NCBI GenBank assembly: GCA_951406725.2
Contig: OX597818.1
Location: forward strand, 5,456,001-5,520,000
Origin: Octopus vulgaris
Taxonomy: Eukaryota
Length of the DNA: 64,000 bases
Reading direction: 5' to 3'
Made by a program: the position numbers and the translations under genes. This document shows positions 1,830-56,773 of the stretch, piece by piece; position 1 is the first letter of the stretch, and each line of letters begins with the position of its first letter. Below the pieces are notes generated by a model. The model ran no database searches, had not been told where the DNA came from, and saw nothing but the letters and a program-made list of their open reading frames with translations.

Positions 1830-2185
1830 TATATAACATTTTTTATTCTTAATGAGATAAGAAAAACCAAGGCTGTGTATATGTATACCATTCTGCCATA
1901 AGCTATTAGAATATTATATGTCCAACATTCTGCCTAAAAAATTGATCTACAAATGCAATATCCCTACATATCTCACAGCTATTTTCTTTTATTTCCTCCA
2001 CTTCACTCCCTATATTATATCTTATCTAAATTATCTATTTCTTAACCCTCCCCTCGCACAGTCTCCGATGAAGGGATATAATAAATATCCTGGTAACAGC
2101 TGTAAGACCTTCTATATAAAAATGTTCTAAGAGCTACACAGCCTTGGTTTTTTTTTATCGCATTACGAAATAAAATTTATAAATA
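1830..2185 (+). mobile_element. PLE-type 3' end (pseudo-LTR) with ~50 bp inverted copy of its terminus
   Basis: 1830-1879 (..ATAAGAAAAACCAAGGCTGTGTA) is the reverse complement of 2135-2185; contains HHR motif 2061-2108. Confidence 0.6.
2061..2108 (+). ncRNA. Type I hammerhead ribozyme motif, variant/decayed
   Basis: GTCT-CCGATGA-A-GGGATA[taataaa]TATCCT-G-GTAAC-AGCT-GTA-AGAC: stems I and II and palindromic stem III loop present; U4->C and GAAA->GTAA deviations. Confidence 0.65.
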
Positions 2186-2323
2186 TATATTACGGAGATG
2201 TATTTGCATAGCATGTGACCAGATCTGAGATCGGGTGCTGAAACAAAACAATTGGAGCGTGGAAGGTGTTTATAAGCCATTTCAATACATACAAAAATCG
2301 TTAGATTCACTTCATTTAATTTT

Positions 2324-2379
2324 AATTTCTCAAGATATTTTCGTCGCTTTGAGACCGTGACCTTTTCAATGACAAAATT
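2324..2379 (-). ncRNA. Minimal HHR-like motif with U3-A8 core (decayed)
   Basis: Minus strand TTTTGTCA-TTGAAAA-G-GTCAC..GCGAC-GAAAA-TA-TCT-TGAGAAA. Confidence 0.45.
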
Positions 2380-2396
2380 CCGTGATGCAGCACGGA

Positions 2397-2450
2397 ATTT
2401 TGTCAGTGAACAGGACGCGGTTTCACAGCGAGGAAAATATTTTGACAAAT
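2397..2450 (+). ncRNA. Minimal HHR-like motif with G3-C8 core (stem II decayed)
   Basis: TTTGTCA-GTGAACA-GGACGC..GCGAG-GAAAA-TA-TTT-TGACAAA; 7-bp stem I. Confidence 0.45.
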
Positions 2451-2541
2451 TGAATTTAAATTTTGAAGTGAATCTAACGGTCTTTGTGTGCTTTTAAATG
2501 ACTTATAAACACTTTCCATGGTGCAATTGTTATTGTGCATA

Positions 2542-2597
<56 letters not shown>

Positions 2598-2789
2598 CAT
2601 ATATAACTACACATGCATACATAGTTACATACAAGTATGTATGCATATATACACATAGTATATAATACATATAAGTATTCAGTTAGCCAAATATATAAAA
2701 AATGATAGATACTTAACAAACTGAATTAACAGATACGTATATACAGCTAGCAGTACATATACATATATAGTACATATATACTTCCTACC

Positions 2790-2880
<91 letters not shown>

Positions 2881-2882
<2 letters not shown>

Positions 2883-3597
2883 TAAGTAATAAACCCTTAA
2901 TTACTTAGTGTTACTTAAACCTTCCTCGAATGGGGCTTTTACATGCCGAAATCTACTTGGTGAAATTAATGATTATTCCAAATTAATTAATTTCACCCTA
3001 TATTATTATTGATAACCATATTTCATCCCAGTAAATTGCCGCAACATCTTATTCTGGCAGCACGCTGGTGGGAGGAGGATGGTGACACATACTTTCATTC
3101 ACACTTTGAATTTGGTGGTACTGGTAACGGCTTACGCTCGCTCTGATACCATGAGTTGAGGTGATGTCTTCTAGTGCCTCCAAATTTAATACACAATTAT
3201 TTATAATTGTAGAGTCCTGCGCTGAGGAGAAAAATAGTCGGGTAAGACATAATTATTTAATTTTCATGCTTTCCTATGACTTAATTTCGAAACGTACGTC
3301 CGTAGGTGACTTAATATAGAATGATTGTCGTCATTTCTTTCTCTTTTGCCTGCGTTGTTTGCCTTTTAAGTGCTGTGGTTTTACTGAGATCTCCCTTTTA
3401 AGTAGAAAGAATAGCCATAACTCTTTGACTGCTATTTCTAAATTCGGTGTGTGGTGAGGCAAATCGTTGCTAAACCCTTAATAACTTAGTATTACTTAAA
3501 CCTTCCTCGAATGGGGCTTTTACATGCCGAAATCTACTTGGTGAAATTAATGATTATTCCAAATTAATTAATTTCACCCTATATTATTATTGATAAC
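2881..3597 (+). mobile_element. ORF-less HHR element, copy A (581-bp unit, ~1.2 tandem copies)
   Basis: 127-bp direct repeats 2890-3016 and 3471-3597 (2 mismatches); 10-bp 5' inversion 2881-2890; flanked by (TA)n; internal HHR. Confidence 0.85.
3216..3306 (+). ncRNA. Type I hammerhead ribozyme, canonical core
   Basis: CCTGCG-CTGAGGA-GAAA..(extended stem II)..TTTC-GAAAC-GTAC-GTC^CGTAGG; predicted cleavage after C3300. Confidence 0.9.
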
Positions 3598-4617: not shown

Positions 4618-4756
<139 letters not shown>

Positions 4757-4783
4757 CATATATATGTATATATATATACATTT

Positions 4784-5334
4784 GGTGGGTGCCTCCTCGT
4801 TATCGAGTATGGCCATTGCACGAAGCTTAATCAATGTTGTTATCGTGCAATGCCTGTGCAAGAAGATTTTTTTTTAAAGTGAGGAAAGGCTGTGCACTGA
4901 GATAATCTCACTCACTAAGCAACAGCAGCCATAATCCGAACAGAAGAACAAGTCAACATCATCGGTAACCACTGAGCCGCAGGTTTTATGTCGGAGTTAT
5001 CCCAGTTACCTGAGTTACCCTCTCCTAGAAGGATGCCCTAACAAAGGCTAGGTGCCCTTCACTCCCAATGGTTTAACCGCGCTATCGGGTATTCAGTCCG
5101 ATTATTTCCATGTCCCCGCACATGATACAGCCCTAAGACATTTATTGGATGGCCATTGACTCTCAAGAGTTACTCCGCCATTTGACAGGTTTTGTTTTTA
5201 ATCCCGCAGGGTGTCCAATAAACACCCTGCTCACCAAGCAAGCTTGGTGGGGTTGCCGGCTTATTCGCCGACGACCCGACCATGCAACAGGTACTGGGTT
5301 ACATGTTACCAGTAGCACTCGAAAGTGACCTGAC
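4784..5334 (-). mobile_element. ~550-bp non-autonomous retroelement, probably RTE-derived (5'UTR+3'UTR type)
   Basis: Closely similar to 17737-18286 in opposite orientation; CTAGGAGAGGGTAACTC resembles RTE 5'UTR motif; 3' hairpin CTCG-ATAA-CGAG; 45-bp 5' fragment also at 4297-4338. Confidence 0.7.
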
Positions 5335-5351
5335 ATAATGTATATATATAC

Positions 5352-5382
<31 letters not shown>

Positions 5383-5501
5383 CATATGTATACACACACA
5401 CACATATATATGAGAGAAAAAGAGTGTAAGAAACAGAAAGGAAGTGTAAGAGATAGGCTGAGAGATAGATATTTATGCGTGCGTTTTTTCGTATGCATGT
5501 G

Positions 5502-5542
<41 letters not shown>

Positions 5543-6173
5543 TATTACCATGATACGATCGTATATGAATGCATAAAATCTTATCTTTTATACACTATGA
5601 TTTGTCATAAAATCCCCATATGAAAATTATTACCAACTTCATAGAAATTTTGCTACTACGTTTTTAATAGGAATCTTCATCTGTTTCGTTTAATTGTTTT
5701 TAACAAAATGCAACCATGTGCGTGAATTAGAATTCATTAAAGCGAAGGTATTGAAATATATTATATTTTCGTTTAAGTTATGTAAAGCACGTAATATTTT
5801 CCTTTCTTATAAAATCTCTCTGCTAGGTATAAACAAAACTTAAGATAATATTGTGTCATTTGTTTTGAGAATGTGTATGGCATATAGATGCCTTTACAAA
5901 TGTGTTCGCATGTTTTAGTGCGCTTGTGTCTAGTCACTTTGGTTTGTCTTTAAAAATGTTCTGTAATGCATATGCTGACACACACGTTAGTCCATATTAA
6001 TTATAAAAATTCAATACATGCCACTATCATTCATGCATTGTATAATAGTGGTATATCTTGTAAACACATATTATACCTTTTGTAAATCCATGTGCATGTG
6101 TGTGCATATCTGTGTGTGTGTGTATATATATATATATGTACATATATATATATATATACATAGAAGCATATAC

Positions 6174-6225
<52 letters not shown>

Positions 6226-6232
6226 GTATATA

Positions 6233-6273
<41 letters not shown>

Positions 6274-9200
6274 CATACACACAGATGCAAACAGACACAC
6301 GGATACACAGGAATGCATGTCTATGGGTCTTGTATATGTTGATATAAATTTTCATACGTGTATATACGTTTGTATATTATTGAAAAAATAATGATTTTAC
6401 TTTAAACTCTATCTTGTACTTTTACAGCAATGTGTCGAAAACATATGCGAAACGAAGATTCCTTTTAAATTGCAATTACAGTTCATTGAAAAGTACACTC
6501 TTTACGCAGTTTTAATAACACATACAGCAAGTGTGTGACAAATTCATACACTCCTACTATATAATATCAATGTAAACATACGACTTTACTAAAATTATTA
6601 TGTGATTTCATTCCCAAAGAACTTCATTTCTGTATGGAATATATGTTCCTCATAACATATTAGATATCTCATCATCATAGTAATTGTTTTCTGTTTTATA
6701 TTATGCTTATTGCTGGACACCAATTATCAATTGTCACGAACAAATATTGAATTAGTTAGCGATGATAATAGTACACAGATATGGTTTTAGTTTCGAAATG
6801 CCCATGTCATTGTGTATCCAGCTTTCTATTCCCATTATATTTGTATAATTTATTTGCTTTTTTTAGCTTAAAGTATGGATTGTTTATCATTAGAAATATC
6901 ATTGTCATTTTTATATTCTCAACGATGGTTGCATATGCATAAGTTTACTATGTAATGTTTGCCTCCGAACGCCTTGATTGTTAATAGATGTAGAGATCTA
7001 AATTAAATGGGTGGGGTGCTGGACTTGTTTACACTTGAATTTCGGCAGTGCAAAATTGATGGTATTGTCTCATCCGTCTTACCAATTACGTTGGTTGTGC
7101 AACTTCTTAAATACACTTAAAAATCACAATATTAGTTGTCGCTATTTAAGCATATGTAAATTAAAATAGGTAATAAACAAGCTCCATTGCAAAACTCAAC
7201 TCGTATCTTTGGTGAATATACTTTCCCATGTTTTTATAATGCATATACATTCAGTTAATTTACTTGGCTCTATCTTAATGTCATCCGTTGTGATTAAGGT
7301 AGTACAATACAAGAGGTTGCTGATGTTTTATTTTTCTTCTTAGTTGCAGTAATAACAGTGATCCTTGGATTTCCGTCGTTCGTTCATTTAGTGGATGTGA
7401 TAAATGTTGATAACCTGGTTACTGAAATTGTTTATATGACTAAGAACAAAGATTTTGAAAGTGTTCCCTGCCGTATAGTGTATCAGATAGGAATCCATTC
7501 GTCAGTGTCATCCTTCTTTTAAGAGAATGATGTATTATTTGCATTTGTACTATACTTCTACGATGCTGAATAACAGTGTACAAGCTTTTTTTTTTTGTTA
7601 TTTCGATATCATTTTTATCTCAGTTTCCTATTTGTTGCTAGGTCTGTGAATGCTACTGTCAACGTTTTCCATTGGCAATAATGGTAACAGATGAATTACG
7701 ATACTGAAATACACTGAAATTTAGGTTTTCGGTATGTGATGGATTAATAAATGCTTTTATAGTTTATATCGCATGACCTGTAGTGAACTAGACACTTGTG
7801 CCTGTCTAGCCGAGATCAATTGTATATTAAACACATGAAATGTAACTGATATGTAACTCATTTATGAACAAACAATTAAGAAATGAACATAAAATGAAGC
7901 AACAGAATTACTCTCATCTTAGTTCTCTACTATGTGAAATAGAGCCGTTGATTTCGGTACTTCTAAGGAATACAGGAAAAGGACTTACCAAAAAAAAAGT
8001 ATATTCACTGTGATGTAATGTTATGTAATAATGACATATATTCTATTTGAAATACAAGTATATGACTAAATCTAAAATTAGATAACTAGATAGAAGTGAC
8101 GGCAAATCAAGTGATTTACGTGTGGTATTCCTTGTATTGGTTCAGACTTTTCATATGAATATCGTCCATTACCCACAGGTACCCTCTGATAGACTAGAGT
8201 TTGGTACGTCGGAATATCGTTTCTTTCTAGGAAATTTATTTATCTGCTTCCAGTTTAAATGCTTCTAGATACCACGTCTTGGATTCGTTACTATAGCAAT
8301 CTCCAGTGTTGAATCAACTTTGTAATAGTAATACATTTTCTTATCAATGAGTGTAATTAATCGGTTCGTTTATACAATATCTAAGCTTAACTTTCCTCAT
8401 TTGAAATTTTGCAACTACTGGTAAATTATATCCCTTTGACATATGTTTTCTAACAAAAATATACCACATGACACACTACATATTACCAGGTTTTTGTAAC
8501 ATTAAACAGTGTTACACATGCAGCTATACACTAATTGAAATATTAATAATACAATCAAAACGTACAAGCAGTTTCATTTGCTGATCGACCCACTTGGCGA
8601 GAAACATGGGGAAATGTTTCTTCTGATGCCGCTCGAAGATATCGAAAGCTGAACTTTTTAACATATGACATAAAGACTATTTGAAATATATGTCTAATTT
8701 TGTTAATACTAGATTTTTAAAAACTGAAGCTTCTAACGAAGCTATTTCTAGACGAGTTATTGGAATATTGAATGATATATTTTAAATGTTCTGACAAACA
8801 AACAAACGTAGCCATAGACTAACATATATCTTATGTGTTGATTCATAATGTTAAGTAACTTCACAAGAATCGAATTATTTAAGAAGGCACATATATATAT
8901 AAGTCCTTATAAAAGTCGTTAAAATATTCGAACAACTTAAGTAACGCCTATGTGTTGTTATCACGTAACCAATACTGCAAAATTCACACCAGAGTATTTC
9001 ATGGGACAACAAACCAATTTTCGACAACCCCATCCAATGTTGTTTGTCAATATACCAATGAAGCAAACTGCTAATAGCACGGAATCATGCAAACACACCA
9101 CAAGTGTACGCAGTACATTACAATAGTGACAAAACCGGATGTTGCTCAAAATATTCCCAGCATGGGCATTAGTTAACTGAGACATTTCATCACATTGTGC

Positions 9201-9594: not shown

Positions 9595-10431
9595 TTTCAA
9601 CAATTGAGGGTAAAATTAATTAATTAATTATTAATCAATTTCACCAAGTGTTCAGTATGTAAAGGGACCATTTAAGGCGAATTCAAATTATTACATTATA
9701 TAAAAGGGCTTAGTAAAATAAATTACTTTGCCACATACTGAACTCATTAGAAATAGCAGCTAAAAAAACTTTTTTAAAACTATTTCTAATACTTAAAGAA
9801 AATCTCTCTCATATAGTGCTTGCTCAATTCAACTCACGAAAGTATGGGGGTAAAGACATTAAAAAATCAAATGCAAAGGTTATTTGAGAACGTACGTTTC
9901 AAGATTAGTCAAACTCGACATTTCTATCATCAGCTCAGAACTCCTTGGTTTGGATTTGATAACACTGAAAGTGGGAGCATACCCTTTCGGCTTCCTATCG
10001 CTTCTGAAGATCTGCTCGAAACTAACAGTGTCAACATACCCAAAAAATGCAAGCGAAGAATTTCTGCTCTCCCCTTTCCACCAGCGTGGGTTAAAATCAG
10101 CAAACGCTAAGCTTTTTCGGTAAATCCGAAACATTAAATAGAGAGAGATGAATTATAATTTCAACAATTGAGGGTAAAATTAATTAATTAATTATTAATC
10201 AATTTCACCAAGTGTTCAGTATGTAAAGGGACCATTTAAGGCGAATTCAAATTATTACATTATATAAAAGGGCTTAGTAAAATAAATTACTTTGCCACAT
10301 ACTGAACTCATTAGAAATAGCAGCTAAAAAAACTTCTTTAAGTATTAGAAATAGTTTTTAAAAAGTTTTTTTAGCTGCTATTTCTAATGAGTTCAGTATG
10401 TGGCAAAGTAATTTATTTTACTAAGCCCTTT

Positions 10432-10439
<8 letters not shown>
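9595..10439 (-). mobile_element. ORF-less HHR element, copy B (564-bp unit, ~1.3 tandem copies plus inverted segment)
   Basis: 177-bp direct repeats 9595-9771 and 10159-10335; 10334-10439 is the reverse complement of ~9695-9800; homologous to copy A; (TA)n on both sides. Confidence 0.85.
9885..9937 (-). ncRNA. Type I hammerhead ribozyme, canonical core
   Basis: Minus strand TGAG-CTGATGA-TAGAAATGTC[gagttt]GACTAATCTT-GAAAC-GTAC-GTT^CTCA. Confidence 0.8.
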
Positions 10440-10463
<24 letters not shown>

Positions 10464-10512: not shown

Positions 10513-10556
10513 TTTCAGTACCGGTTTCGGTCATTTTGAGACCTTTTCAACTGTAA
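10513..10556 (-). ncRNA. Minimal type I HHR, U3-A8 variant, in a PLE-type 3' end (~10462-10840)
   Basis: Minus strand TTACAG-TTGAAAA-GGTC[tcaaaat]GACC-GAAAC-CG-GTA^CTGAAA. Confidence 0.75.
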
Positions 10557-15052: not shown

Positions 15053-15143
15053 TTTCAGTACAATTGTTTCATACAAAGACAAGCTTCATTAAAAGCTGCA
15101 AATATTGCAGCAAATACAAGTGTCCCGTACTCATCAGCCAAAA
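15053..15143 (-). ncRNA. Type I hammerhead ribozyme, canonical core, extended stem II, in PLE-type 3' end (~14905-15503)
   Basis: Minus strand TTTTGG-CTGATGA-GTACGGGACA..TGTCTTTGTAT-GAAAC-AATT-GTA^CTGAAA. Confidence 0.85.
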
Positions 15144-15362: not shown

Positions 15363-15728
15363 TTTCATACTCACAGACGATGAATCTATCCATGATTAAT
15401 CCACAATAAGGTGGGTATAATGTCCTGCAATATGATAAGATACTTGTCACACCTCTGTTCATTTCACAAAACTGCTATGTTAGAAATTTTAAAGGCTGAA
15501 GGATACTGGGATAACTGAGAGTTATCCCAGTATGCTCTTTGTGGGCGGTTTTTCTTTTTTCTTTTTCTTTTCTTTGCTCCACAAAATTCCTTCAGCCTTT
15601 AAAATTTCTAACATAGCAGTTTTGTGAAATGAACAGAGGTGTGACAAGTATCTTATCATATAGCAGGAAATTATACCCACCTTATTGTGGATTAATCATG
15701 GATAGATTCATCGTCTGTGAGTATGAAA
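15363..15728. repeat. Near-perfect 141-bp inverted repeat with structured spacer
   Basis: Arms 15363-15503 and 15588-15728, 2 mismatches; perfect 14-bp hairpin 15503-15533 at the spacer edge. Confidence 0.95.
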
Positions 15729-16671
15729 GAATGCAATTGGTTTAAAATAAAATAATTTACATATATACCAAACTAGTTTTAAAAATATTTTTTGTTCATC
15801 AATGGTAAAAATTTTTGAATTATGAATTAGTAAAACATGTTTAAAAGTTTCAATGTTAACAAGTTTAAATGTTCATAACAGTCGATAATATAACAAACTG
15901 GATCAACTTAAATGTACAGATGTCAATAGCGTCATAAGTGGTCGACAAGAAACTAATATAATCAAAGTTTCATTCATACTGAGTTAAGAGGGAGAAAAAC
16001 AAGGGAGAAATGAAGATAGTAATAAAAGGGATTTAGTTTACAGCTTCTGCGATTATTTTTCCTTTGTGTGCGAAATAAATTGTTATCTGCGGGGAGACAT
16101 ACTGCTTACGCGCTCATCGATTCAATTATTATTTATTTAAGACAATCCAAAATTAGTTAAATTGAAAGTGAACTAACTAAATAGTTCCATTACCCGAATA
16201 TTATTTATTTTTTGTGTCCTTCAAAAATTTTCGTTGCTTTGGTAACCTTGTCAGTGGATGTTATATATGCCCGTTATCGGAGCTACGTTCTTTTTGCCTG
16301 TTATACAGATGTACACTACGCCTCATAGTATACAGTCCAGGAGATCCATTTTTAGCTGAGCTTACAAATCAGTTTCACACAGGATTTCGACAGTTAGCTG
16401 ACTACTTAACACTTCTATCTTTAGAATGTCTGGCATGAAACATGGCGATGAGTGTTTGCTATTGGAAGTCAGGAAGTATTGTACCCATTTCGTGAGTGCT
16501 GGGAAATAGTCAGAAAGAACCGGTGGGTTCCATCAAAATTTATGTCTCTTCCCCATCAAATCTTCGTGAGTGGTAAATGCCAAAAAATGGGATTTGTGTT
16601 CGAGCGGTGTGGAGTTGAATATCAGACGGGTGCTTAAAGGATAATATGGGAGGGGTACCTAATATGGGAGG

Positions 16672-17455
16672 TACTAGAAATAGCAGCCAAAAGTCTGCTA
16701 TTTCTTTTTTCTACAAAATATGTCCATAATTAATGGAAGACTGTTTGATTTCACTATTTTTTCTTCTTTTTGCCTATGTGAGTTACAAATATTGTTAAGA
16801 AATAGCAGTCTTTTGGCTGCTATTTCAAAAATTCTCGGCATGTGGTCAAGCAACTTGTTGCTAAACCCTTAATTATTGTTATAATTATATATAAAAAAAA
16901 ACAACTTTTTGTATAAGTTTTTACTGAATATGATTCTTTTCCATACCGAAAACTATTTGGTAAAGTTTGTTAATTTATTAAATTAATAATTTTTTACCCT
17001 ATATCTGTAATGATCATTTCAATCCACGATCACAAAACTGCGGATCTCTTTCTACGGTACTATCTTGTGAGGTACATTGTAAACTTGGAGGGAAATACGA
17101 ATTCACTCGTCTATATAAATGTGGATATGCTGATTAACTTTTGTATGTTCTGATGGCGCTTGGTCAGAAAACAAGTGGTAAGTTTTCCAAGCATTTTCAG
17201 ATTTATAATTCTCGAAATATTATGTTGATGACGGAAATGAATATTTATAATTCTAATCCAGAAACGCATCCATAATTAATCGAAAACTGTTTGATTTCAT
17301 TATTTTTCTTCTTTTTGCCTATGTGAGATAAAAATATTGTTATCTGTGGAGACATATTTTGTCGAAAAAAGAAATAGCAGTCTTTTGGCTGCTGTTCGTT
17401 AAATTTTCGGTACATGGTTAAGCAACTTGTTGCTAAACCCTTAATTATTGTTATA
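16672..17455 (+). mobile_element. ORF-less HHR element, copy C (~546-570 bp unit, older)
   Basis: Diverged direct repeats ~16722-16885 and ~17270-17455; short 5' inversion 16677-16706; shares TGCTAAACCCTTAAT, AAATAG..CTATTT and GGTAAA..TTTACC elements with copies A and B. Confidence 0.8.
17219..17276 (+). ncRNA. Type I HHR motif, decayed (U3.G8)
   Basis: ATTATG-TTGATGA-CGGA..TCCA-GAAAC-GC-ATC^CATAAT; 6-bp stem I. Confidence 0.65.
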
Positions 17456-17478
17456 TATATGTATGTATGTATGTATGT

Positions 17479-26639: not shown

Positions 26640-27561
26640 GCAATTGGACATACAAAATTACTACTCCTCTATTAACCCTATTATATTAAATCAGGCTTTA
26701 CTTTTTGCTAGGAGATATACCAACTTAAGTATGGGGGAGGTAAAGGTTATCTTAACAGCTAGAAAAGCATTACTAGAGTTTGATAATAAACTATGGGCTA
26801 GGAAAGACACACCAAACTTATTTGACATCACCATGGGATGCCGGATTCAGCGGAAGTGACAGATCTAGTAGGGATGTATTTACTCGATAACCTTAATAGG
26901 GAATTCCCAGAATTAAAGGGCGGACTATACAGGAACGACTCTTTATTTCTAGTCAAAAACACATATAATAGGAGACTAGATTTACTGAAAAAACGACTAC
27001 ATAAATTTAAAAAAAGTTTTGGCTTAACCATAGCTATTGAAAATGAAAATTACTCTGCCAATTATTTGGATGTCAATTGCAACCTTACTAATGGGATACA
27101 TCAACCGTATATTAAACCTAATTCTAAATTAGTATATATAAACCACTCTTGCAATCACCCCCCCTCAAATTAAAAAGTCACTGGTACGCAGCATTAGTCA
27201 GATAATCTCTTATCTATCCTCAAACGGGGACGTATTCAATAGGCATTGTGAAAAATATAATACGGCTTTGCTTAAGGCAGGCTACACAAATAGAATTTGG
27301 TATATACCCAATAGTAATATTTCCAATACAGGTGGAACTATTATGAATAACACTAATAAATCCAGAAGGGACAATAATAGCTATAGGATAAAGAAAAATA
27401 TGATATATAAAAATACATATGGCTATAATACTAGTTTTGGTAATTTTAGAGCTGTTAACATTAGTCCAAATAACTTAGCGCACAATAGTGATAGTGGGGA
27501 TATTATCAGTAGGCATAATAATAATGATAATATATATTGCAATAGTGAAGTTCATCTACAC

Positions 27562-27606
<45 letters not shown>

Positions 27607-28484
27607 GACATTAACAAAACTAATCCAAAGTGGAATTCTAGGCATTATATTGACAATATTAAAGGTAGAAAGAATATAGGTTTGAAGCGTAATGGGGTTT
27701 TTCCCAAAGATAACAATTTGATGAGTAATCCACATAGTGATGAAGATGCACTATGGCTAATAACACCATATGCAATGCAGATTAAAACAGATATACTCAG
27801 AACAATACATAACATAATATATAGACAATTTGCTAAGGGTAAGAACAAATTTAGCCAAATAATTAACAATAGAACTATTAGAATAGGATATAGCATTACG
27901 AATAATCTAGCCACCATCATTTCCTCCTTTAACAACAGGAAATTGGATTGCTTCTATAATGACAGAAGGATAAACCTGAGGAGTAATGAAAATAGGTGCA
28001 ATGCTATCAATAGGAATAGAGATATTGAGATTTCTGCCAAGGTTAAATCTCCTCAATCTGTTAATAGCTGTAATTGCAGAAGCAGGAACCAATGTGTGTT
28101 TGGAAATAAATGCCTGAGGAAAGAGGTTGTTTACTAATGCGCTGTAAATACACAATATAATAGCAAGGTGTACATTGGTGCGACTAAAAATAGTATAAAA
28201 CAACGGCTAAACTATCATAGATATACTTTTAAAAATTAAAATAGGATGAACTCTACGGGGCTTAGTACGTATATCTGGGAACTCAAGAGTAAGAACATAG
28301 ATTTTAAATTAGATTGGGAAATACTAACATCTGCACCTGTATACAATAGTAGAAATAAAAAATGCTCTTTATGTATCAATGAAATTTTCTTCATCATCAA
28401 GGCTGGCCTATCCATTATTAATAACATTAACGAGAGAAATTTTTTCTGCCTTCACAAGATTTCTCTAGATTTAAATAGCACCTA
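26640..28484 (+). pseudogene. Penelope-like RT + C-terminal GIY-YIG endonuclease (probably Nematis-like), 5' truncated, disrupted
   Basis: DIQNYYSSI, FDITMG/DSAEVTDLVG, GLYRND (YRDD variant), NYLDV, NHPP, CNCRSRNQCVFGNKCL..VVY..VYIGAT, CSLCINE; stops and frameshifts. Confidence 0.9.
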
Positions 28485-33029: not shown

Positions 33030-34860
33030 TAGTAACAGAAAAGAGGAATTTTTGATTATCCCCACGTGGTGAGTTGTAATGTATATAAGAAATTAGAAGG
33101 AAAATACGCACACTTTCATAGTTTTAATGTAATTTTTAATATATCGACCGATTTCGCTATCGCTATTCATGATATTATGTTTTACTTATTTGAATATATA
33201 TATTTTTCTTAAGATGGATTTTTGTCCATGTTGTGTGTGATGAAATTCACAAGTAGATAAATAAAGAGAGGTAATTGGTTGTCGTTATTATTGTTATTGT
33301 TTTGGGTAAGGGAGATAAATGTTCAGCTTTCGGTAACGGGTGGGGATTATATATGTGTACAGACAGAGAGAAGTTTCAAAAACCTTGTTTAGTAGGGAAT
33401 TTATGTACAGTGATGTAATCGTGAATTGAAATATGTAAAAAGATAAAAGTTGGTTATGCGGGCATATTAAGACGTGTTTTGTATTTTTCAATGAAAAAAG
33501 TTTCTTATTTAAACGTTCTAGTTGAGAGATTGCGTCTTTGCACTGGTAGAAAGGGAAGACTATGAAATTTGGTTTGATGTTACCTGCAAATTTTCTATAT
33601 GTTCACTGAGAGGAATTTGTCTGTATTGCGGGAAACTGATTTGCTCTTTATGTAGAGTGCTTCTCTTTCTTAAGGTCATACTCGTTTGTCCAATATAGTG
33701 GTATTCGCAGCCCGAGCAGGTTATTACATAAATTAGTTTCTCAGAGGCACAAGTGAAACTAGTTTTAATTGTGGACCTCTGTCCTTGTTTGAAAAGGAAA
33801 TCCGAGCCTTCAAGCAGGTTGGGGCAGGTTCCACAGTTTGGGCGTCCACATTTTTCAACTGCTGGTTTCGTGGCTGTTTTGTAAAGCTTCGCATTTGTAA
33901 GTAGTCTCTTTAGCGATTTGTCTTGTTTTTTTGCTTTTGATGAGTTTGTGTGTTTTCAGAATGTCGTTCATTTTTGGATCTCTAGTTAGTAAAAGAAGAG
34001 TTTGCACAATAGTGTCAAATGTCTCACTCTTTCTGGGGTTGTGTGTTGATATAAATAGTAATGATTTGAGTTGAGGTGTGGTGTTATGTTTTGTTATTCT
34101 TAGTTTTTTGTGTCTAATTGTTTGGCACATTTAATTCCCTCGTCGATAATACAGAGTGGATATTGTCTTTCAATAAGTTTTGTTTTGATGTCTTGAAGAC
34201 GAAGGTCCCGAGTTGTTCTATCAGACACTATTGTGCAAATACGTTTTGCCAAATTGAAAGGGATGTTTATTTTGACGTGGCTCGAGTGGCATGCGTTAAA
34301 GAGAAGATATTGTTTTGAATGAGTTGGTTTATAATAGATTTCAGTTATGATTTCATTGTTAACTTTTTTTATCATAATGTCTAAAAATGGGAGTTGTTCT
34401 TTGTTATATCCCATTGTGAATTGAATGTTACTATTTATGTCATTTAGTGTTGATTTGAAATCCAAAAGTTTGTCGATGTTCTCCTTCCAGATGATAAAGC
34501 AGTCATCTAGGTATCTCTTCCAATTTTCTTTTATGTAGAGGTAAAATGGGTAACCATATTTCTGAAGTGATATTTCATATAAGGTGAATTAAAAATAACC
34601 CATTATTAGATTCGCAAGAACAGGAACTGCTTTCGTCCCCATCGCAATTCCACATTTGTGACGATAGTTTGTGTCGTCAAATAGGAAATAATTGTTCTGA
34701 AGTATAAATTTTAAGGATTCAATAATGAAGATCTGGTTTATGCGCGGGAGACTTTCGGGGTACTTTTCCAACCAGAATGTAATTGCTTTTATTCCATAGC
34801 CATGGGGGATGTTGGTGTAAAGATTGATAACATCGAGGGTAACCAATATTGCCTCTTAAT
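33030..34860 (-). mobile_element. Penelope-like element (Neptune-like), 5' truncated, disrupted ORF, with 3' UTR
   Basis: LDVINLYTNIP, GIAMGT..ANLIMGY, WKRYLDDCF, LPFLDI, YYKPT, CGRPNCGTC, FTCASEKLIY..TCSGC..YIGQT. Confidence 0.92.
33141..33175 (-). ncRNA. Minimal type I HHR, A3-U8 variant, in 3' UTR of the PLE
   Basis: Minus strand ATATC-ATGAATA-GC[gata]GC-GAAAT-CG-GTC^GATAT. Confidence 0.7.
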
Positions 34861-37160: not shown

Positions 37161-38520
37161 TTATTCGTTTGTTGTAGATGCGTTCAGAAGGGGCCTTATT
37201 TTGTAATAAAGAGAGTTTCTTTACTTATTCGTTGGCTCGAGGTTGTATCGTCCCTGAATTGGTAGAGGGGGAAAATTCCGAAGCTTGGAGTTTTGTTGTT
37301 GGCGCAAATATCTATTTGTTGGCTGAATGCTATTTTTCTGTTTTGGGGAATTTTTATCTGGGATCTGTGCAGAGCCATTCTTTTACGTAAACTATCGTTT
37401 GTTTGGCCTATGTATTGCTCTTGACAACCCAAGCAGGTTAGTGTGTATATCAGGTTCTCCGAAGCACATGTGAAGTTGCTTTTCACTGTGAACCGTTGTC
37501 CCTGTTTGAAGGAGAACTCTGATCCCTCAATTAGATAATCGCATATCCCACAATTGGGTCTTTCACATTTTTTACTGTCGGCTTATGTGTTGATGAACGT
37601 ATTCAAGCTTGTGTTAGGAGACTTTTCATAGATTTGGGCTGTCTCTTGCTTTTTATGATCGTGTGTGTTTGGAGGATTAAGTTCATTCTGTGGTCTTTTT
37701 GTAGCAGGGGTGTGTTTTGGAGGATGGCGTCGAAGGCTTCATTGTTGAGAGGGTTGTGTGTGGAGATGTATGGTAAGGCTTTTGGTCGTAAATTTTTCTT
37801 TAATTTGGGATGTCTGAGTTCCTGGAAGTTGAGTTGAATGCATATGTCAATTAGTGAAGGTGGGTAGTTCCTGGTGGTGAGGGTATCTTTTAGTTCATGT
37901 AGTCGTGTGTCTCTAGTGTTTGCATTAGAAACTATAGTAATATTCTTTTTGCTAGGTAGAAGGGGATATTCATTCTGGTGTGTCTGGGGTGGCATGAATT
38001 GAAAGGAAGATATTGCTTAGAATCCGTAGGCTTGTAGTATATATCTGTTTCTATTACATTATTAGATTTCTTAATGAGGATGTCGAGGAAGGGGAGTTGT
38101 TGCTGGCTATATTCCATCGTGAATTATTATTATTATTCTCCCCCCTCTTCTTCTTAACTTCATCACTAATGCTCTTTAGTATAACACCTACGCAAATTCT
38201 ATAAACAAACCTTTTAATAGAAATATTTTCATGAATTGGACAGCAGGAACTGCTAGCCACGACTGACCAACGACAATGAAGGCAAACCCAAATTCTTCCT
38301 CCCTTTCTCCCCCTCCTCCTTCTCCTCCTCCTTCTTTCAGTTTCTCTATATTTTCATGCCAAAGAATGAAACAGTCATCTAGGTATCTCTTCCAGTTGTT
38401 TTCTATGTAGAGGGAGAAAGGGCTGCCATATCTTTCTAGAACCTTACGATACAGACTGATTTCTAGATATCCCATGACTAGGTTGGCAAAGGAGGGGCCA
38501 TTCGCGTACCCATCGCAGTC
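37161..38520 (-). pseudogene. Penelope-like element (Neptune-like), disrupted, with unrelated insert ~38125-38330
   Basis: GTAMGT, ANLVMGY, WKRYLDDCF, LPFLDI, YYKPTD, FTCASENLIYTLTCLGCQEQYIGQT. Confidence 0.92.
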
Positions 38521-38564
<44 letters not shown>

Positions 38565-39666
38565 ATATATATACATATATACACCTACACACATACACAC
38601 ATGCATACACATATACATACATACATACACATACATATACATATGTACACACCCACATACACATACATATAAATAAACATACATACACACATATATATAC
38701 ATACACATACATACACCCACCCACCCACACATACACACACATATATATGTGTGTGTGTGTGTGTGTACACTTCCACTCATACATACACCCACGCATGCAT
38801 ACATGTAAATCCCACTATGTATAAATCTTCATACATACACGCCCGTGGATTCATGCATACACACACGTAAAAGCATCACATCTTCTAAATATCTATCTTG
38901 ATTTTGGGGATGTGACAGTTTTAATTTAATTAACAAATTAATAATTTAAATGTAAAGATAAAAATAAACGGTAAAATTAGAAAAAAAATAAAATATACAA
39001 AAGCAATGTACAGGAGCAAATATTATAATGGAAAAAATAATCGAAAAGTTCTGGTGATAACAATATTGTTACAATATTACAATATAATATTGATTGGAAA
39101 AATACGTTGGTTTGAGAGATTTCAAGATGATCCACTATGTAAAATACTCTTATTTATATTGTTAGGGAAAGTGAGAAGTTAAAAGTTTCTAGTTGTTTAT
39201 TACCCTATAATACTCATCTAATGTTAATATTCATAAAGATATTAATGAAGTTATATGCTAAATTATAGAGAACAATGGTTAGATTAATTATCTATGTTCC
39301 ATATAGATACGCATAAGTAAGTATAAATTTTCCAGATTAAATGTTATGTGCATACTATCCGGGGATAGAGTTGTTGGGGTAAGTCCATGAATAGTTAATC
39401 TAATAACTGAGTAGTGGTAGATTATTGAAATTCCAATGTGAAATGATTATGAAGGTATTACAAGGGAGAATTAAGGATTATAATATTTAAAGGTTTTAGT
39501 TAATTTATGCATGCAAGATGGCTTAAATTCAGATCTTTATTAACTAGCTTCTTTTTAACTTTGAATCTAATGATTTTTAGAAGTTCTAAGCAACATAGCT
39601 GGTAACCCGTTCTATTATTTTTATAAGTAGCTGCCGATCCAATAATGGACCATCTAAGGTTATATA

Positions 39667-40121: not shown

Positions 40122-42226
40122 ACATCCTTTTTGTCTCGGGAGACAATGGAGTTGCGCATAAAATAGTCTAGTCCGGCTTATACATTTCATGTCCTGATAC
40201 ATTTCCTGCTGTGGCTGTGTAGTCCTATCCTGGACAAACACTCTCTCTGGCAGGTACCGCAAATGTAGCGAAGACTGTTCCTGGCTGGTTGTAATGTCAT
40301 AGTTTCTTGTTGACGTCTTTTCTTGTCTTTCCATTTCTCCTCTCTCTGTCACTCCTTTGTATTCCGTCTTTTACGGTACGTCGCCAATCTCCACGGTTGC
40401 TGGCAATTGCTTTTCAACTGCTAATATTGATATTGCAGGCCTTCATATCCCTTTTGTAAACATCCTTGTAACGTAAGAACGGTCTGCCCACAGACCTAGT
40501 ACCCCTAGCAAGCTCTCCGTAGAGTATGTCCTTGGGAATTCTGCCATCTTTCATACGGCTAACATGACCAAGCCATCTCATACGTCTTTGTGTGAAGAGT
40601 GCAAACATGCTTGGTATTCCTGCTTGCTTGAGGACATCTTTGTTGGGGATATGATTCTGCCATTTGATGCGGAGGATTTTCCGGAGGCAGCGCAGGTGAA
40701 AGATGTTTAGGCGACGCTCTTGGCGTGTGTATAGCGTCCAGGTCTCACTTCCATACAGTAGAGTGCTAAGTACACATGCCTGGTAGATCTTCATTTTCGT
40801 GGTCTTGGTCAGCTTATTGTTGTCCCATGCCCGTTTGGAGAGTTGGGCCATCGCAGCAGCTGCCTTGCCAATGCGTATATTGAGCTCAGCGTCAAGGGAT
40901 AGGTTGTAGGTGACGGTAGAGCCAAGATAGGTAAACATCTCCACCTCCTGTAATCTGTGGTCTCCAATGTGGTTGGGATGTCCGATGTAGCCTGACCCAT
41001 GATGTTGGTCTTCTTAAGGCCGATAGCTAAGCCAAAGAAGTCATTTACATGCTTGCTCAAAACAGTTAATGGGCCTTTGGAGGGCTTCTTCTGTGTGTGA
41101 TACCAGAGCGGCATCATCAGCAAATAGCATATCATTGATCAGGACGTTTCTGATTTTGGTCTTGGCACGCAGGCGTGAGACATTGAACAGTTTCCCGTCA
41201 CTTCTACTGTGCAGAAACACTCCATCATCTGATGTCTGAAAGGCATGTGAGAGCAAGAGCGAGAAGAAAATGCCAAATAATGTAGGAGCGAGGACACAAC
41301 CTTGCTTTACCCCGTTTATTATTTCGAAGGCGGCTGATGTTGAACCATTGTGCTGTATGGTGCCTTGCATATCATCATGGAAAGACTTGATGATCCTCAG
41401 CAGCTTTGGTGGACATCCGATTTTTTGGAGCAGGATGAAGTGGCTTTTTCTACTTACCGAGTCAAAGGCCTTTGTTAGATCAATGAAGGCCATATATATT
41501 GGCATTTTCTGCTCTCTGGATTCTCCTGAATTTGGCGTATGGAGAATATCATATCAATAGTTGATCTGCTTCTTCTAAAGCCACACTGCGATTCCGGATA
41601 GATTCCAGAAGCAAGTTGTTGTAGCCTGGCCAGGATAGCGCGAGCAAAGGTCTTTCCAACAGTGCTTAGAAGAGATATTCCACGGTAATTGTTACAAACA
41701 CCACGGTCACCTTTGTTTTTGTAAAGCGTAATGATGTTAGCATCCCGCATATCCTGAGGGACTGTACCCTCTTCCCAGCCCTGACACAGAAGCTCATGAA
41801 GGTGCCGAAGCAGGATGGTGTTTTTGCCGGCTTTGATTATCTCTGAGGGGATGCCGTCTTTTCCCGGAGCCTTGTTTCTTGCTAGGGAGTCAATAGCCTT
41901 GGTGCGCTCTGCTATAGATGGCGGACTGTCAAGTTCGCACATGACTGGCAAGATCTTGACACTCTCGATTGCAGCCTCAGCTACTGCAGTCTCCCGTGAA
42001 TAGAGATCCTGGTAGTGCTCCACCCATCTATCCAGTTGCTTACTTTGATCCCTGATGAGATCTCCAGTAGTTGATTTCAGAGGGGCTGACTTGGTTGCGG
42101 ATGGACCGAGGGCTTTCTTCAAACCGGCATACATCCAAAAGGTGTCATCCCTGTTAGCAGCTGACTGGATACTCTGACAGATTTCCTGCCAATACCTATT
42201 TGCACAGTGTCTGGCTGTCAGTTGAG

Positions 42227-42228
<2 letters not shown>
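40117..42228 (-). mobile_element. RTE-clade LINE, 5' truncated, frameshifted RT
   Basis: KAPGKDGIP, NYRGISLLS, ESQCGFR, FIDLTKAFD, GVKQGCVLAP, FADD, FTYLGS, WLGHV; 3' end CCATTGTCTCCCGAGACA; (TA)n on both sides. Confidence 0.95.
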
Positions 42229-42311
<83 letters not shown>

Positions 42312-42332
42312 CATATACATATATATAAATGT

Positions 42333-42595
42333 GGAGGCGCAATGGACGGCGGTTAGGGTAGCGGACTCGCGGTCGGAGGATCACGGTTTCGATTCTCAGA
42401 CCGAATGTTGTGTGTGTTTGTTGAGCGAAAACACCTAAATGCTCCACGAGACTCAGGCAGAGGGTGGGGGTGACACAACTTTCTTTCACTCTCGATTCCT
42501 GTTTCTTGAGTAACGCTGCGATGGACTGGTGGCCCGTCCAGCTGGGGGGAACACATACGCCACAAAAACCGGCTAGGCTTGAAAAGGGCGCGAAT
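42333..42595 (+). mobile_element. tRNA-derived SINE
   Basis: GGAGGCGCAATGG..GGTTAGGG, B-box-like TTTCGATTC; related minus-strand copy 54389-54531. Confidence 0.8.
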
Positions 42596-44259: not shown

Positions 44260-45340
44260 GTCATGCCTCCCTCTTGATCTAAAAGTGTGGAGCAACGAAA
44301 GAAAGAAAATGCAGAGCGCATGAAAACGAAAAGGCAGGAAAAGGCATCAGCAGCTGCCGACAGTGTGCAAAGGCGAAGACATAGGCAAAACGAAACGCCG
44401 GATGCTTCCGAGACTGACACTGCAAAAAAGCGCCGACTTAGGGAGAACGAAACGCCGGAGGCTGCCGAGACTCACCATGCGTGCAAAATGGCGAAGACTT
44501 AGGGAGAACAAAACGCCGGAGGCTGCAGAGCCTCGCCGTGCGACTGAAAGTGCAAAAAAAGCGAGGACTTAGGGAGAAAGAAACGCCGGCGTCTGCCGAG
44601 ACTCGCCGTGCGTCTAACAGAGCAAATAAGCAGAGACTTAGGGAGAACGAAACGCTGGAGGCTGCCTAGACTCACTGGGCGTCTGACAGCACAAAAAGCT
44701 AAGACTGAATAAGAAAGAAACGCCGGAGGCTGCCGACACTCGCCGTACGTCTGTCAGGGCAGGAATGCACAGACATAGAAGTGTTAGCTCTGAAACTGAT
44801 GAGAAAGATCTGCTACAAAGGGCATTATATGCACGAATACATTCGGCCTAAAAAGTTGGAGACACTCAACTGGTTGAAGCAGAACAATCCTTTGTACAAG
44901 AACATCGTCATCGGCACAGACTGGAAAATTGGTGGGAAGATGATGATCCAGAGCTGTGGTAAGCAATAGCCAAAGCCTGTCCAGAGGAGATGGAAGTTGA
45001 TCAACCAGACTCCCCTTTTCCTCCGTCACCCACGCCAACTGAAAACAGTTACCACATGCTGGAACATCTGGTTAAGAGGCGCAACTTGAAGATAAAGCAG
45101 ATCCTTGCGAATGGTAACTGCTTACTTCATACTGTATCATCATCTCTCACTTTAGTTGGAGAGCAGAACATCGATGGGCCCGACATACGACAAAAACTCA
45201 TTGACTAACTTGAGACAACATCTGACAAGCAGTACTACTTTGGCTTTTTACAACTTAACAATAGCCTACACCAGTCATCTGTACATGAAATCCTAAGTCA
45301 GCAGCCTATGACATGTATATTAATGAGCTGAGAAATGGCA
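44260..45340 (+). pseudogene. Helitron/Helentron-like ORF remnant with ~69-bp coding tandem repeats and OTU-like segment
   Basis: Six RLRENETPEAAETRRA-type repeats (44390-44760); LKLMRKICYKGHY..IRPKKLETLNWLKQNNPLY; KIKQILANGNCLLHTVS. Confidence 0.7.
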
Positions 45341-54676: not shown

Positions 54677-54931
54677 GGTATTTATAAAATCTTAAAGCTT
54701 ACGGCGATCACCGTACAATGACCAAGGAAAATAGTCTAATAAAGAGGCATATAAGCCCTCGACAGAAAAAAAAGGATTTTCTATCCGCGTGGGGCTCAAA
54801 CACACATCCCTTTGTTAACGCGGCTAAGTATGTTACCTTTACACCTGCGAACTATATTAGTTCGTATTTTATTTACATTATTTACATTATTTAAATTCGA
54901 CGGATATTTGTCCTCATCTTGTTTGTTTTTA

Positions 54932-54975
54932 ACACAATGTTTCGGCTGATATATCCTCCAGCCTTCTTTGGGTGT
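54932..54975 (-). ncRNA. Minimal HHR, core decayed, stem II intact
   Basis: Minus strand ACAC-CCAAAGA-A-GGCTG..CAGCC-GAAAC-ATT-GTGT. Confidence 0.55.
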
Positions 54976-55016
54976 CTTGGGGATATTTCAAAACCCATTC
55001 CTAAGGTATTTTTCGA

Positions 55017-55086
<70 letters not shown>

Positions 55087-55305
55087 GTTATTGTTCAGGT
55101 CACTGCTTGGAAACGAACTCGGAATCTTGGAGTTAGTAGCCTGTGCTCTTAATCACTACGCCATATGTCCGTGGGCATATGGCGAGATTCCGAGTTCGAT
55201 TCCAAGTAGTGAACTGAACAATAACAACAACAACAACAACAATAATAATAATAACATCAAAAACTACATTAGGAATGATAACCCAAGTTCGAAATTTTCC
55301 CAAGT

Positions 55306-55347
55306 CACCTGAAGAAGACTGAAGGGTATATCAACCGAAACGTTGTG
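55306..55347 (+). ncRNA. Minimal HHR, core intact, stem II decayed
   Basis: CAC-CTGAAGA-A-GACTG..CAACC-GAAAC-GTT^GTG. Confidence 0.7.
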
Positions 55348-56773
55348 TTAACAATAAACAAGATGAGAACAAATATCCGTCGAATGTAAATAATGTAAAT
55401 AATTTACATAATTCTTCATCTCTTAAATATAGAACTGTAGTTCGTATTTGTTTATGTAAACAAACATTCTATGTGCTGTCGGTGCGAATGGCTTTGTTAT
55501 ACGGTGTCGTGTTTTACAATACTGTAAATAATAATAATGATTATTTATATAAGCCTGGCAATCACCGTGCAATGACTGAGGGAATTTGTCTAATATATAA
55601 ATACCATTATTATTATTTACAGGATTGTAAATCACGGCACCTTATAACAAAACCATTCGTAGCGAAAGCACATACAAAGTTTGTTTACATAAAGCAAATA
55701 CGAACTAATATATTTCTTAAATTTGAACGAAAGAAGCAAGCTAATTCGCTGGTGTGACTGTAACACACATAGTTACGTTAACAAAGAGAAGTGGGTTCGA
55801 GTCCCTCGTGGATAGAAAAGCCTTCGTCTCTGTCGAGGGCTTATATACCTCTTTATTAGACTACTTTCCTTAGTCATTACACCGTGATACTTTAAGCATA
55901 TATAAATGACATTTTTATTATTTACAGGATTGTAAAACAGGACGACGTATTACAAAACCATTCACATACATATAACGTGATTCGTTCATATATTTATGCT
56001 CTTGTATTTTCTTTCACATTTTTCTCTGCTAGAGCTATTGCAATATATTTCTATTATTCCATTGCGTGCCATTTGAAATGCTTAGCAATGCGTCTGGAAA
56101 ATATCGTCCCATATTTTGTATACTGTATTCTTGTTCCATCTGACGTAGTGAGACTTTTCAAAATTTGAAGAAATCGCAAATTAAATTCTAATATAAAACA
56201 TTATTCAGCTTACTGACACATAAATGTGTGTTTGGATTTTTTACAAATAATTTTCTTTCCATTTTTATTCGCAATTCATTCTTTTGAAGGCATTTATTTT
56301 CGAATAAAGACGCTTTCTCCTTGCCAAGAAAGATTCCTTCCAATTTTTTCATAATACAATCATCAGTATCTAAATAATTTGAAGTTGAATAGGAAAAGAG
56401 AATACAGAAATAAACTATAGCCTGAAGTTACATTTCTCTATAGCATTGGGGCTTATTATCTTACTATTTTTTTCTTTTACGCAATATTCACGGTGTTCCT
56501 TATTTCTAATACCATGCTCGTGTCACTGTCGAAAAGAAAACCTTAATGATATTATCATTTTGCTTCAGGGTTTGAAAACTGAGATAGCCAGCTAATCTAC
56601 CTTCAGGGAATTTTTGAAGTTGAAGCAGGTTGACTATTATTGACACAGAGCGCTATGACACAAAATAAAAGAAAAAGAAAAAGAAACCACTTCTATTCAG
56701 ATGTCGTTTATTTTATATTGATTTCAGAGTTTCAGTTTCAGCTGGTAAATATTTCCCGCAGCTAGTAGACACT

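What the first reader, a model, noticed from the sequence alone, without database searches (positions are those of the whole stretch)
2324..2450. Compensatory change at HHR tertiary pair 3-8; all four Watson-Crick combinations present in the window
Seen: the two arms of one inverted element have cores UUGAAAA (U3-A8) and GUGAACA (G3-C8) in the same register. Elsewhere: U3-A8 (10513), A3-U8 (33141, AUGAAUA), C3-G8 (3216, 9885, 15053) and U3.G8 (17219). Established: C3-G8 is a Watson-Crick pair in the active HHR fold and compensatory swaps retain activity. Inference: these non-CUGANGA motifs were selected as ribozymes and would escape standard searches.
Basis: partly seen in the sequence, partly recalled or inferred. 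Interest (0 to 1): 0.7.

Follow-up and report, generated by a model that had tools for sequence, protein, structure and literature searches.

The report
Hammerhead repeat family with swapped core
The stretch is a decayed, fold-back copy of an abundant animal repeat family whose majority sequence is shaped like a small self-cutting 'hammerhead' RNA with two paired core letters swapped (G3-C8 instead of C3-G8), which would be a new natural variant if it cuts, while the second swap in this one copy is likely chance decay.

Summary
The letters are as described, but the reading changes. 2243-2536 is an 82% inverted repeat, and neither arm is an intact hammerhead. Contigs of four public runs (4,753-6,506 laid per run, three organism labels) show a high-copy family. 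Its majority has G3 (97-98% of depth) and C8 (94.5-97%), also where the left arm has U3-A8. Majority letters close 15 of 15 pairs of a minimal type I hammerhead (arms 12 and 13). So G3-C8 is the family state; the left arm's U3-A8 is a deviation in a broken copy that would fold as a long hairpin, probably chance (a rare subfamily is not excluded). 'All four pairs' mixes unrelated single copies: C3-G8 and U3-A8 (10550) pass a descriptor, A3-U8 is weak, U3·G8 looks decayed. Natural U3-A8 is published; I found G3-C8 only as an engineered, partly active swap, but four key papers were unreadable. Penelope-like origin and cleavage are inferred, not shown. This scan earlier noted two unproven G3-C8 candidates in other genomes. 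Verdict: new variant of a known kind, interest 0.5.

The parts
2243..2536 (.). Fold-back (inverted) copy of a high-copy repeat family; arms 82% identical, centre 2387/2388
   Evidence: Self-BLAST; inverted arms 2314-2387 and 2388-2461; 4,753-6,506 contigs laid per run on 2236-2535
2399..2449 (+). Right-arm hammerhead-like motif: stem I 2399-2405/2443-2449, core GUGAACA 2406-2412 (G3-C8, the family state), bulged G 2413, stem II 2414-2418/2428-2432 (two base-proximal pairs broken in this copy), GAAA 2433-2436, palindromic stem III, U16.1 2441, U17 2442 (predicted cut after 2442)
   Evidence: Pair table: 13 of 15 pairs in this arm, 15 of 15 with majority letters
2326..2376 (-). Left-arm hammerhead-like motif, core UUGAAAA 2369-2363 (U3-A8, departs from the family); U16.1 lost (2334), one stem I pair (2329) and one stem II pair (2358) broken
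   Evidence: 12 of 15 pairs; family majority at 2369 and 2364 is G3 and C8
2384..2391 (.). Fold-back centre; in other copies the right-arm sequence instead continues upstream into a pyrimidine tract ending in CA before G2384 (splice-acceptor-like; inferred)
   Evidence: Loose ends before 2384 in 52-53 contigs per run; 9 of 32 listed pieces bridge the centre (tables 7 and 8)
2539..2881 (.). (TA)n-rich microsatellite directly behind the right arm
   Evidence: Tandem Repeats Finder
10516..10553 (-). Separate minimal hammerhead-like motif with U3-A8, 4-bp stem II and CCGG palindrome; single copy in the window
   Evidence: Passes the strict descriptor; best score
3216..3306 (+). Canonical C3-G8 type I hammerhead-like motif with long stem II
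   Evidence: Passes the strict descriptor
9885..9937 (-). C3-G8 motif with weak stem II base
   Evidence: Loose descriptor
15053..15143 (-). C3-G8 motif with long stem II, G·U at 10.1-11.1
   Evidence: Top score of the loose descriptor
17220..17275 (+). U3·G8 motif with C·A at 10.1-11.1 and imperfect stem III palindrome; likely a decayed C3-G8 motif
   Evidence: Read from the sequence; not among the hits or 67
33141..33175 (-). A3-U8 candidate with a 2-bp stem II, about 385 nt behind a broken GIY-YIG-like reading frame on the same strand; weak, single copy
   Evidence: Sequence; medium descriptor; not a hit; Pfam GIY-YIG E 0.0014, below cut-off

Best explanation
2243-2536 is a decayed fold-back copy of a high-copy repeat family, likely derived from the flanking repeat (pLTR) of a Penelope-like retroelement, whose majority sequence forms a predicted minimal type I hammerhead with a G3-C8 core pair, and the U3-A8 of its left arm is likely an unselected double mutation. 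Shown: family size in contigs, majority letters, closure of all stems by those letters, damage to both arms. Inferred mechanism: in the single-arm source element the motif is transcribed; its two-pair palindromic stem III (AAUAUU) is too weak alone, so two motifs would pair through stem III, or the element's protein would help folding; G3 would pair with C8 and hold residue 8 as C3-G8 does; the RNA would cut after U17, slowly, as for other Penelope minimal hammerheads. The swap was probably fixed once in the source lineage and then amplified. Fold-back copies such as this one would form a long hairpin and decay neutrally.
For: (4 of 24 listed runs, at least 80% likeness): 2369 reads C (G3) in 97.2, 98.1, 98.0 and 97.0% of depth; 2364 reads G (C8) in 94.5, 96.6, 97.4 and 97.3% (shares). 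The per-run tallies of change kinds account for every G>T and C>A place, so neither U3 at 2406 nor A8 at 2411 reaches 4%; no run has room for both changes of a canonical C3-G8 subfamily at 4%. At all 9 positions where the arms differ in the motif region the majority equals the other arm, and all 5 broken pairs are closed: 15 of 15. A rough analytic chance of so complete a motif is about 6e-7 per 300 nt. Two common minority letters in stems keep pairing as wobbles (2330, 18-24%; 2432, 11-25%). The build matches the metazoan Penelope consensus: extra base between 9 and 10.1, G10.1-C11.1, palindromic 15.2-16.2, U17, U-rich 5' and A/U-rich 3' flanks (PMC4209133). Engineered G3-C8 partly rescues a Penelope hammerhead (PMC11167929) and shows strong positive epistasis (PMC9901934). 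Chance of a pair-keeping double change in a copy this decayed: 0.2-0.7% for this pair, 6-10% for any of 15 pairs in two arms. An unnamed protein record read through another fold-back copy implies G3 with A8, uncompensated (inferred from codons, one copy).
Against: No cleavage data. No reverse transcriptase frame is linked to the family. Majority letters are column by column and depth-weighted; linkage of 3 and 8 within copies was not seen, 16 of 56 rows were hidden, and the tool warns that depth is no copy number. One family fixed for G3-C8 is one event, not covariation. A pair-breaking CpG change in stem II (2430, 7-14%) is as common as CpG changes outside stems, so inserted copies show no constraint. 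The bulged base is G, where the published consensus has H (one listed family has G). For the named pair alone the chance figure is low (0.2-0.7%), and the other fold-back copy shares A8 with the left arm, which could mark a shared sub-lineage. The fold-back has its symmetric part at the centre; I did not show that it matches the inverted structures described for Penelope-like insertions.
Confidence: 0.62

Rival explanations
1. The left arm belongs to a real, small U3-A8 subfamily (perhaps through a G3·A8 step, or related to the motif at 10550), so the family covaries at 3-8.
For: Chance for this very pair is 0.2-0.7%. A second fold-back copy appears to carry A8 in one arm. The left arm and 10550 share 11 letters over the core and the start of stem II. 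Fold-back copies are a small part of the depth, so a 2-3% residue at 2369 could hide such a lineage. U3-A8 families exist in nature (PMC4209133, PMC3088659).
Against: The residue at 2369 (1.9-3.0%) and 2364 (2.6-5.5%) lies within the range of other private differences (0.3-10.8%), although contigs with U3-A8 should be drawn to the left arm. The arm has three other pair-breaking changes. The hairpin would hide the motif. The second copy has G3, not U3.
Confidence: 0.15
2. The G3-C8 motif is a hammerhead relic: the family descends from a ribozyme-bearing element, but the swapped core no longer cuts at a useful rate and amplification does not need it.
For: Minimal Penelope hammerheads cut poorly in vitro (PMC4209133). 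Catalytic mutants did not affect insertion in vitro, and no RNA ends were found at the cut site, in one Penelope-like element (PMC11167929). G3-C8 rescue is partial. Naiad elements thrive without canonical hammerheads (PMC8557442).
Against: All 15 pairs and all other core letters are intact in the majority; two transversions that keep the tertiary pair are easier to explain if the pair mattered in the source lineage.
Confidence: 0.18
3. The repeat is a fold-back DNA element or MITE and the hammerhead shape is a coincidence.
For: Long palindrome; no linked reverse transcriptase; no Rfam hammerhead match.
Against: Rough chance about 6e-7 per 300 nt. A single-arm form with a different upstream sequence exists in every run. 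Rfam also misses the canonical motif at 3222.
Confidence: 0.05

Closest known systems
Minimal type I hammerheads (min-HHR) of metazoan Penelope-like elements (Cervera and De la Pena 2014, PMC4209133; main text parts 1-2 of 4 and supplement parts 1-2 of 3 read)
   Same: Short palindromic stem III, extra base between 9 and 10.1, G10.1-C11.1, U17 common, dispersed high-copy families, pairs of motifs on opposite strands, a core swap at 3-8 in some families (U3-A8, about 1,300 hits in Schistosoma mansoni).
   Different: None of the 56 representative families printed in Fig. S3 begins its core with G (found with C3-G8 and U3-A8 descriptors). Here the family pair is G3-C8, the bulged base is G, and no RT frame is linked yet.
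Natural U3-A8 hammerheads (Perreault et al. 2011, PMC3088659; passages read)
   Same: Natural compensatory change at the 3-8 tertiary pair; matches the motif at 10550 and the letters of the left arm.
   Different: The passages read name U3-A8 only, not G3-C8.
Engineered C3G/G8C hammerheads (PMC11167929, Penelope-like element of Anolis; PMC9901934, pairwise scan; passages read)
   Same: Same G3-C8 pair; partial rescue of cleavage, and protein-assisted cleavage in the Penelope case.
   Different: Laboratory mutants; here the pair is the majority state of a natural repeat family.
Non-LTR retrozymes (PMC7229834, passages; bioRxiv 10.64898/2026.07.22.740005, part 1 of 5)
   Same: Non-coding, type I hammerhead-bearing animal repeats proposed to derive from Penelope-like pLTRs.
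   Different: Retrozymes are head-to-tail tandem repeats; this copy is an inverted pair and no tandem unit holds it.

Membership tests
Minimal type I hammerhead (Penelope type) | Core U4 G5 A6 N7, A9, G12 A13 A14 | tested here: met
   Identical in both arms and taken as the majority; hidden rows could hold minor transitions
Minimal type I hammerhead (Penelope type) | Watson-Crick pair between 3 and 8 | tested here: met
   G3 97-98%, C8 94.5-97% of depth; column-wise, linkage not seen
Canonical CUGANGA hammerhead consensus | C3 and G8 | tested here: not met
   Family is G3-C8; no C3-G8 subfamily at 4% in any of 4 runs (change-kind tallies)
Minimal type I hammerhead (Penelope type) | Stems I and II closed, G10.1-C11.1, A15.1-U16.1, H17, palindromic stem III | tested here: met
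   Met by the majority letters (15 of 15 pairs); not met by either arm of this locus (12 and 13 of 15)
Minimal type I hammerhead (Penelope type) | Self-cleavage after residue 17, as dimer or with help | not testable with these tools
   Needs an in vitro assay; only contigs were laid, which cannot show RNA ends
Rfam hammerhead families | Score at a family's gathering threshold | tested here: not met
   0 matches in the window; no hammerhead among 37 matches at E up to 10 in 2236-3400, which also holds the canonical motif at 3222
Penelope-like element (pLTR) | Linked RT plus GIY-YIG reading frame | tested here: inconclusive
   No such frame next to the element; arm translations found no RT protein; no genome or long family copies were available
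Penelope-like element (pLTR) | Hammerhead in the repeat, inverted truncated copies, intron end near helix I, microsatellite-associated insertion | tested here: inconclusive
   Motif, inversion and an adjoining (TA)n tract are present; an acceptor-like tract 15 nt before helix I rests on a loose-end consensus of low agreement (0.46-0.48)
Non-LTR retrozyme | Head-to-tail tandem units, each with a hammerhead | tested here: not met
   No tandem unit over 2243-2536; other loci of the family not examined for tandems
MITE or fold-back DNA transposon | Fixed terminal inverted repeats with a target-site duplication and a matching transposase | tested here: inconclusive
   Outer ends are unequal: the left arm continues in the family to about 2216, the right arm stops at (TA)n; no duplication could be read in the microsatellite

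The most novel reading that the evidence does not exclude
A widespread animal retroelement family carries an active hammerhead with a natural G3-C8 core, and neighbouring families use U3-A8 and A3-U8, so that all four pairs work in nature; searches for CUGANGA have then missed whole ribozyme families, possibly including those of Penelope-like clades reported to lack hammerheads.
Probability: 0.3. Interest if true: 0.7.

Novelty: new variant of a known kind. Interest (0 to 1): 0.5.

Why it matters
The C3-G8 pair marks the active hammerhead fold. Its reversal has been a laboratory proof of that fold; a repeat family fixed for G3-C8 in at least three organism labels would be natural evidence, and suggests that the source element was selected to keep the pair, which bears on the open question of whether Penelope-type minimal hammerheads need to cut. 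It also gives a simple change to search patterns (any Watson-Crick pair at 3-8): published Penelope and Naiad surveys used CUGANGA strings (PMC8557442). It remains a variant of a well-known ribozyme in a known kind of host element, and this locus itself is a dead copy.

Tried and rejected
No whole genome is held, so copies could not be collected and R-scape-type tests were not possible. Self-BLAST found no second copy of the family in the window. A 16-base exact search of metagenome contigs gave 120 loci from 14 of 64 parts of the collection; none extended beyond about 30 bases, so they were dropped as chance. No RNA holder was listed among 24 runs; this says nothing on expression. A word-based protein search with the arm translations found nothing. 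The HMMER search gave 5 hits: four long many-stretch proteins were set aside as repetitive (one inspected), and one (P0005) is read as a spurious frame through another fold-back copy. Folding energies do not single out any motif. Rfam gives only microsatellite-driven microRNA matches (150 of 205 rows shown). A relaxed descriptor is not above noise (5 real, 3.65 per shuffle), so single-copy motifs such as 33170 and 16254 cannot be settled that way. My recalled guess that the host is a cephalopod was used only as a search word and is untested. Rejected: selection on the left arm as the default reading, and the four combinations as covariation.

Full report
Setting. The window is AT-rich, microsatellite-rich eukaryotic DNA with broken retroelement frames: two GIY-YIG-like pieces below Pfam's cut-off and two RVT_1 frames among 9 frames scanned. 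No genome is held.

The observation. 2243-2536 is an inverted repeat with 81.9% identity between arms and its centre at 2387/2388. Read outward from the centre, the left arm (minus strand) has UUGAAAA and the right arm GUGAACA in mirror register, so positions 3 and 8 are U-A (2369, 2364) and G-C (2406, 2411). The other cores cited are present. But neither arm is a complete hammerhead. The left arm closes 12 of 15 expected pairs and has C in place of U16.1. The right arm closes 13 of 15 and lacks the two stem II pairs next to the core. Neither was among 22 descriptor hits; a scan that allowed one broken feature found the left arm only.

The claim of four combinations. With a strict descriptor 2 motifs pass, 3222 (C3-G8) and 10550 (U3-A8), against 0.1 per shuffle in 30 shuffles. 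With a medium one 4 pass against 0.73. With the loose one 22 pass against 14.9, 14 of the 22 have no Watson-Crick pair at 3-8, and 4 of 30 shuffles hold all four pairs. In the relaxed scan the real count is 5 against 3.65, and neither the window nor any of 200 shuffles holds all four. The A3-U8 case (33170) has a 2-bp stem II and is a single copy, though it lies about 385 nt behind a GIY-YIG-like frame, where such motifs are expected. The U3·G8 case (17225) also has C·A at 10.1-11.1 and an imperfect palindrome, which looks like decay; one published family representative does have U3·G8. So the list mixes good, weak and decayed motifs of unrelated sequence and is not covariation.

The family. 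Of 24 runs listed for 1700-2530 I laid 4 (X1 and X3, organism A; X2, organism B; X5, organism C) on 2236-2535 at 80% likeness. They gave 6,506, 4,753, 5,230 and 5,514 contigs, so the repeat is abundant, although summed depth is no copy number. On the left arm, 2369 reads C on the plus strand (G3) in 97.2, 98.1, 98.0 and 97.0% of depth, and 2364 reads G (C8) in 94.5, 96.6, 97.4 and 97.3%. No row is shown for 2406 or 2411. No run has a hidden place for both G>C and C>G, so there is no canonical C3-G8 subfamily at that level; transitions at these places cannot be excluded. At all 9 positions where the arms differ in 2325-2380 and its mirror, the majority equals the other arm: 5 private changes on the left, 4 on the right. 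With majority letters all 15 pairs close: 7 in stem I, G3-C8, 5 in stem II (GUCGC/GCGAC, starting with G10.1-C11.1 after one bulged G), and 2 in a palindromic stem III, then U17. A rough analytic chance for so complete a motif is 6e-7 per 300 nt. Minority letters at 2330 (18-24%) and 2432 (11-25%, a CpG site) keep pairing as wobbles. A pair-breaking CpG change at 2430 (7-14%) is as common as CpG changes outside the stems, as expected for copies that decay after insertion.

Two forms exist. In every run 52-53 contigs leave the stretch before 2384 and continue into a pyrimidine tract ending in CA (three runs; GA in one), so a single-arm form exists, with what may be a splice acceptor 15 nt before helix I; agreement is low (0.46-0.48). 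Nine of 32 listed pieces bridge the centre with 15-36 other letters, some probably the same locus in different runs, so the fold-back form recurs too. A protein record of no name (P0005, Logan, one member) aligns over 72 codons across the centre (43% identity). Its residues imply a G3-C8 arm and a second arm with G3 and A8. This is an inference from codons on one copy; it shows A8 without U3, and also shows A8 shared with the left arm.

Is the left arm's U3-A8 selected? The residue at 2369 is 1.9-3.0% and at 2364 2.6-5.5%, within the 0.3-10.8% seen at nine other places where this locus departs from the family. With 8-9% private change per site, a pair-keeping double change has a chance of 0.2-0.7% at this pair and 6-10% at any of 15 pairs in two arms. 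The arm has three other pair-breaking changes, and a transcript through both arms folds into one hairpin of -115.8 kcal/mol (z -18). I put decay well ahead of a rare U3-A8 subfamily, which stays open because linkage was not seen and fold-back copies are a small part of the depth.

Mechanism. Shown: family, letters, stems, damage. Inferred: the source element is a Penelope-like repeat; its motif cuts after U17 only when stem III is completed by a second motif or helped by the element's protein; G3-C8 replaces C3-G8. The basis is published work. Metazoan Penelope repeats carry minimal hammerheads of this build, with low dimer-dependent activity and sometimes in opposite-strand pairs (PMC4209133). 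In a lizard Penelope-like element single changes at 3 or 8 abolish cleavage, the double change partly restores it, cleavage needs protein, and insertion in vitro does not need cleavage (PMC11167929, passages). In a full pairwise scan G-C was the only rescuing swap there (PMC9901934, passages). No RT frame is tied to this family by my calls (46, 47, 76).

Novelty. Natural U3-A8 is in print (PMC3088659, passages; PMC4209133). Searches for G3-C8 terms listed no paper that reports a natural G3-C8 family; one listed paper with a single 'G3-C8' string (PMC3884650) was read only in passages on C3-G8, and none of the 56 families in the 2014 supplement has G3. Four papers that could hold such a case were not available, nor were their supplements or repeat libraries, so the claim is 'not found', not 'not known'. 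Two earlier notes of this scan describe single G3-C8 candidates with an added base behind Penelope-type genes in other genomes; they are unchecked and I did not test them. Rfam has no match at threshold and misses the canonical motif at 3222 as well.

Verdict. Observation partly confirmed, interpretation partly supported. The locus is a dead copy; the family behind it is a likely new natural core variant of the minimal hammerhead. New variant of a known kind; interest 0.5; 0.7 if cleavage and wider occurrence are shown.

Noticed in passing
window 16254 (minus strand), about 16220-16260: Minimal hammerhead-like motif with C3·A8 (no pair), bulged G and a 4-of-5-pair stem II; score within shuffle noise.
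   Followed up: partly
window 16723-16892 and 17269-17464: Two copies of one repeat; the shorter begins exactly at U16.1 of the motif at 17225, next to the predicted cut site.
   Followed up: no
window 10516-10553 against 2359-2369 and 2419-2427: The U3-A8 motif at 10550 shares 11 letters with the left-arm core and a 9-letter word with the family's loop II; possibly a related family.
   Followed up: no
window 10256-10442, 15363-15728, 54869-55411, 55438-55707, 54707-55888: Further long inverted repeats; fold-back insertions are common in this DNA.
   Followed up: no
window 1832-1879 and 2135-2181: A 49-bp inverted pair (86%) left of the element, between (TA)n tracts at 1646-1706 and 2539; may be a neighbouring or nested element.
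   Followed up: no
window 2246-2285: Depth here is much higher relative to the motif region in three of four runs than in the fourth; another repeat may share this part.
   Followed up: no
window 26826-28137 (+), 33560-34588 (-), 37196-38814 (-): Broken frames that resemble Penelope-like RT and GIY-YIG genes (resemblance partly recalled; Pfam GIY-YIG E about 0.001 for two pieces).
   Followed up: partly
window 41041-42380 (-) and 61417-62610 (-): Reverse-transcriptase frames of LINE type (RVT_1, E 8.5e-16 and 1.6e-30).
   Followed up: no
window 44365-44778: GC-richer tandem array of about 69-70 bp units.
   Followed up: no
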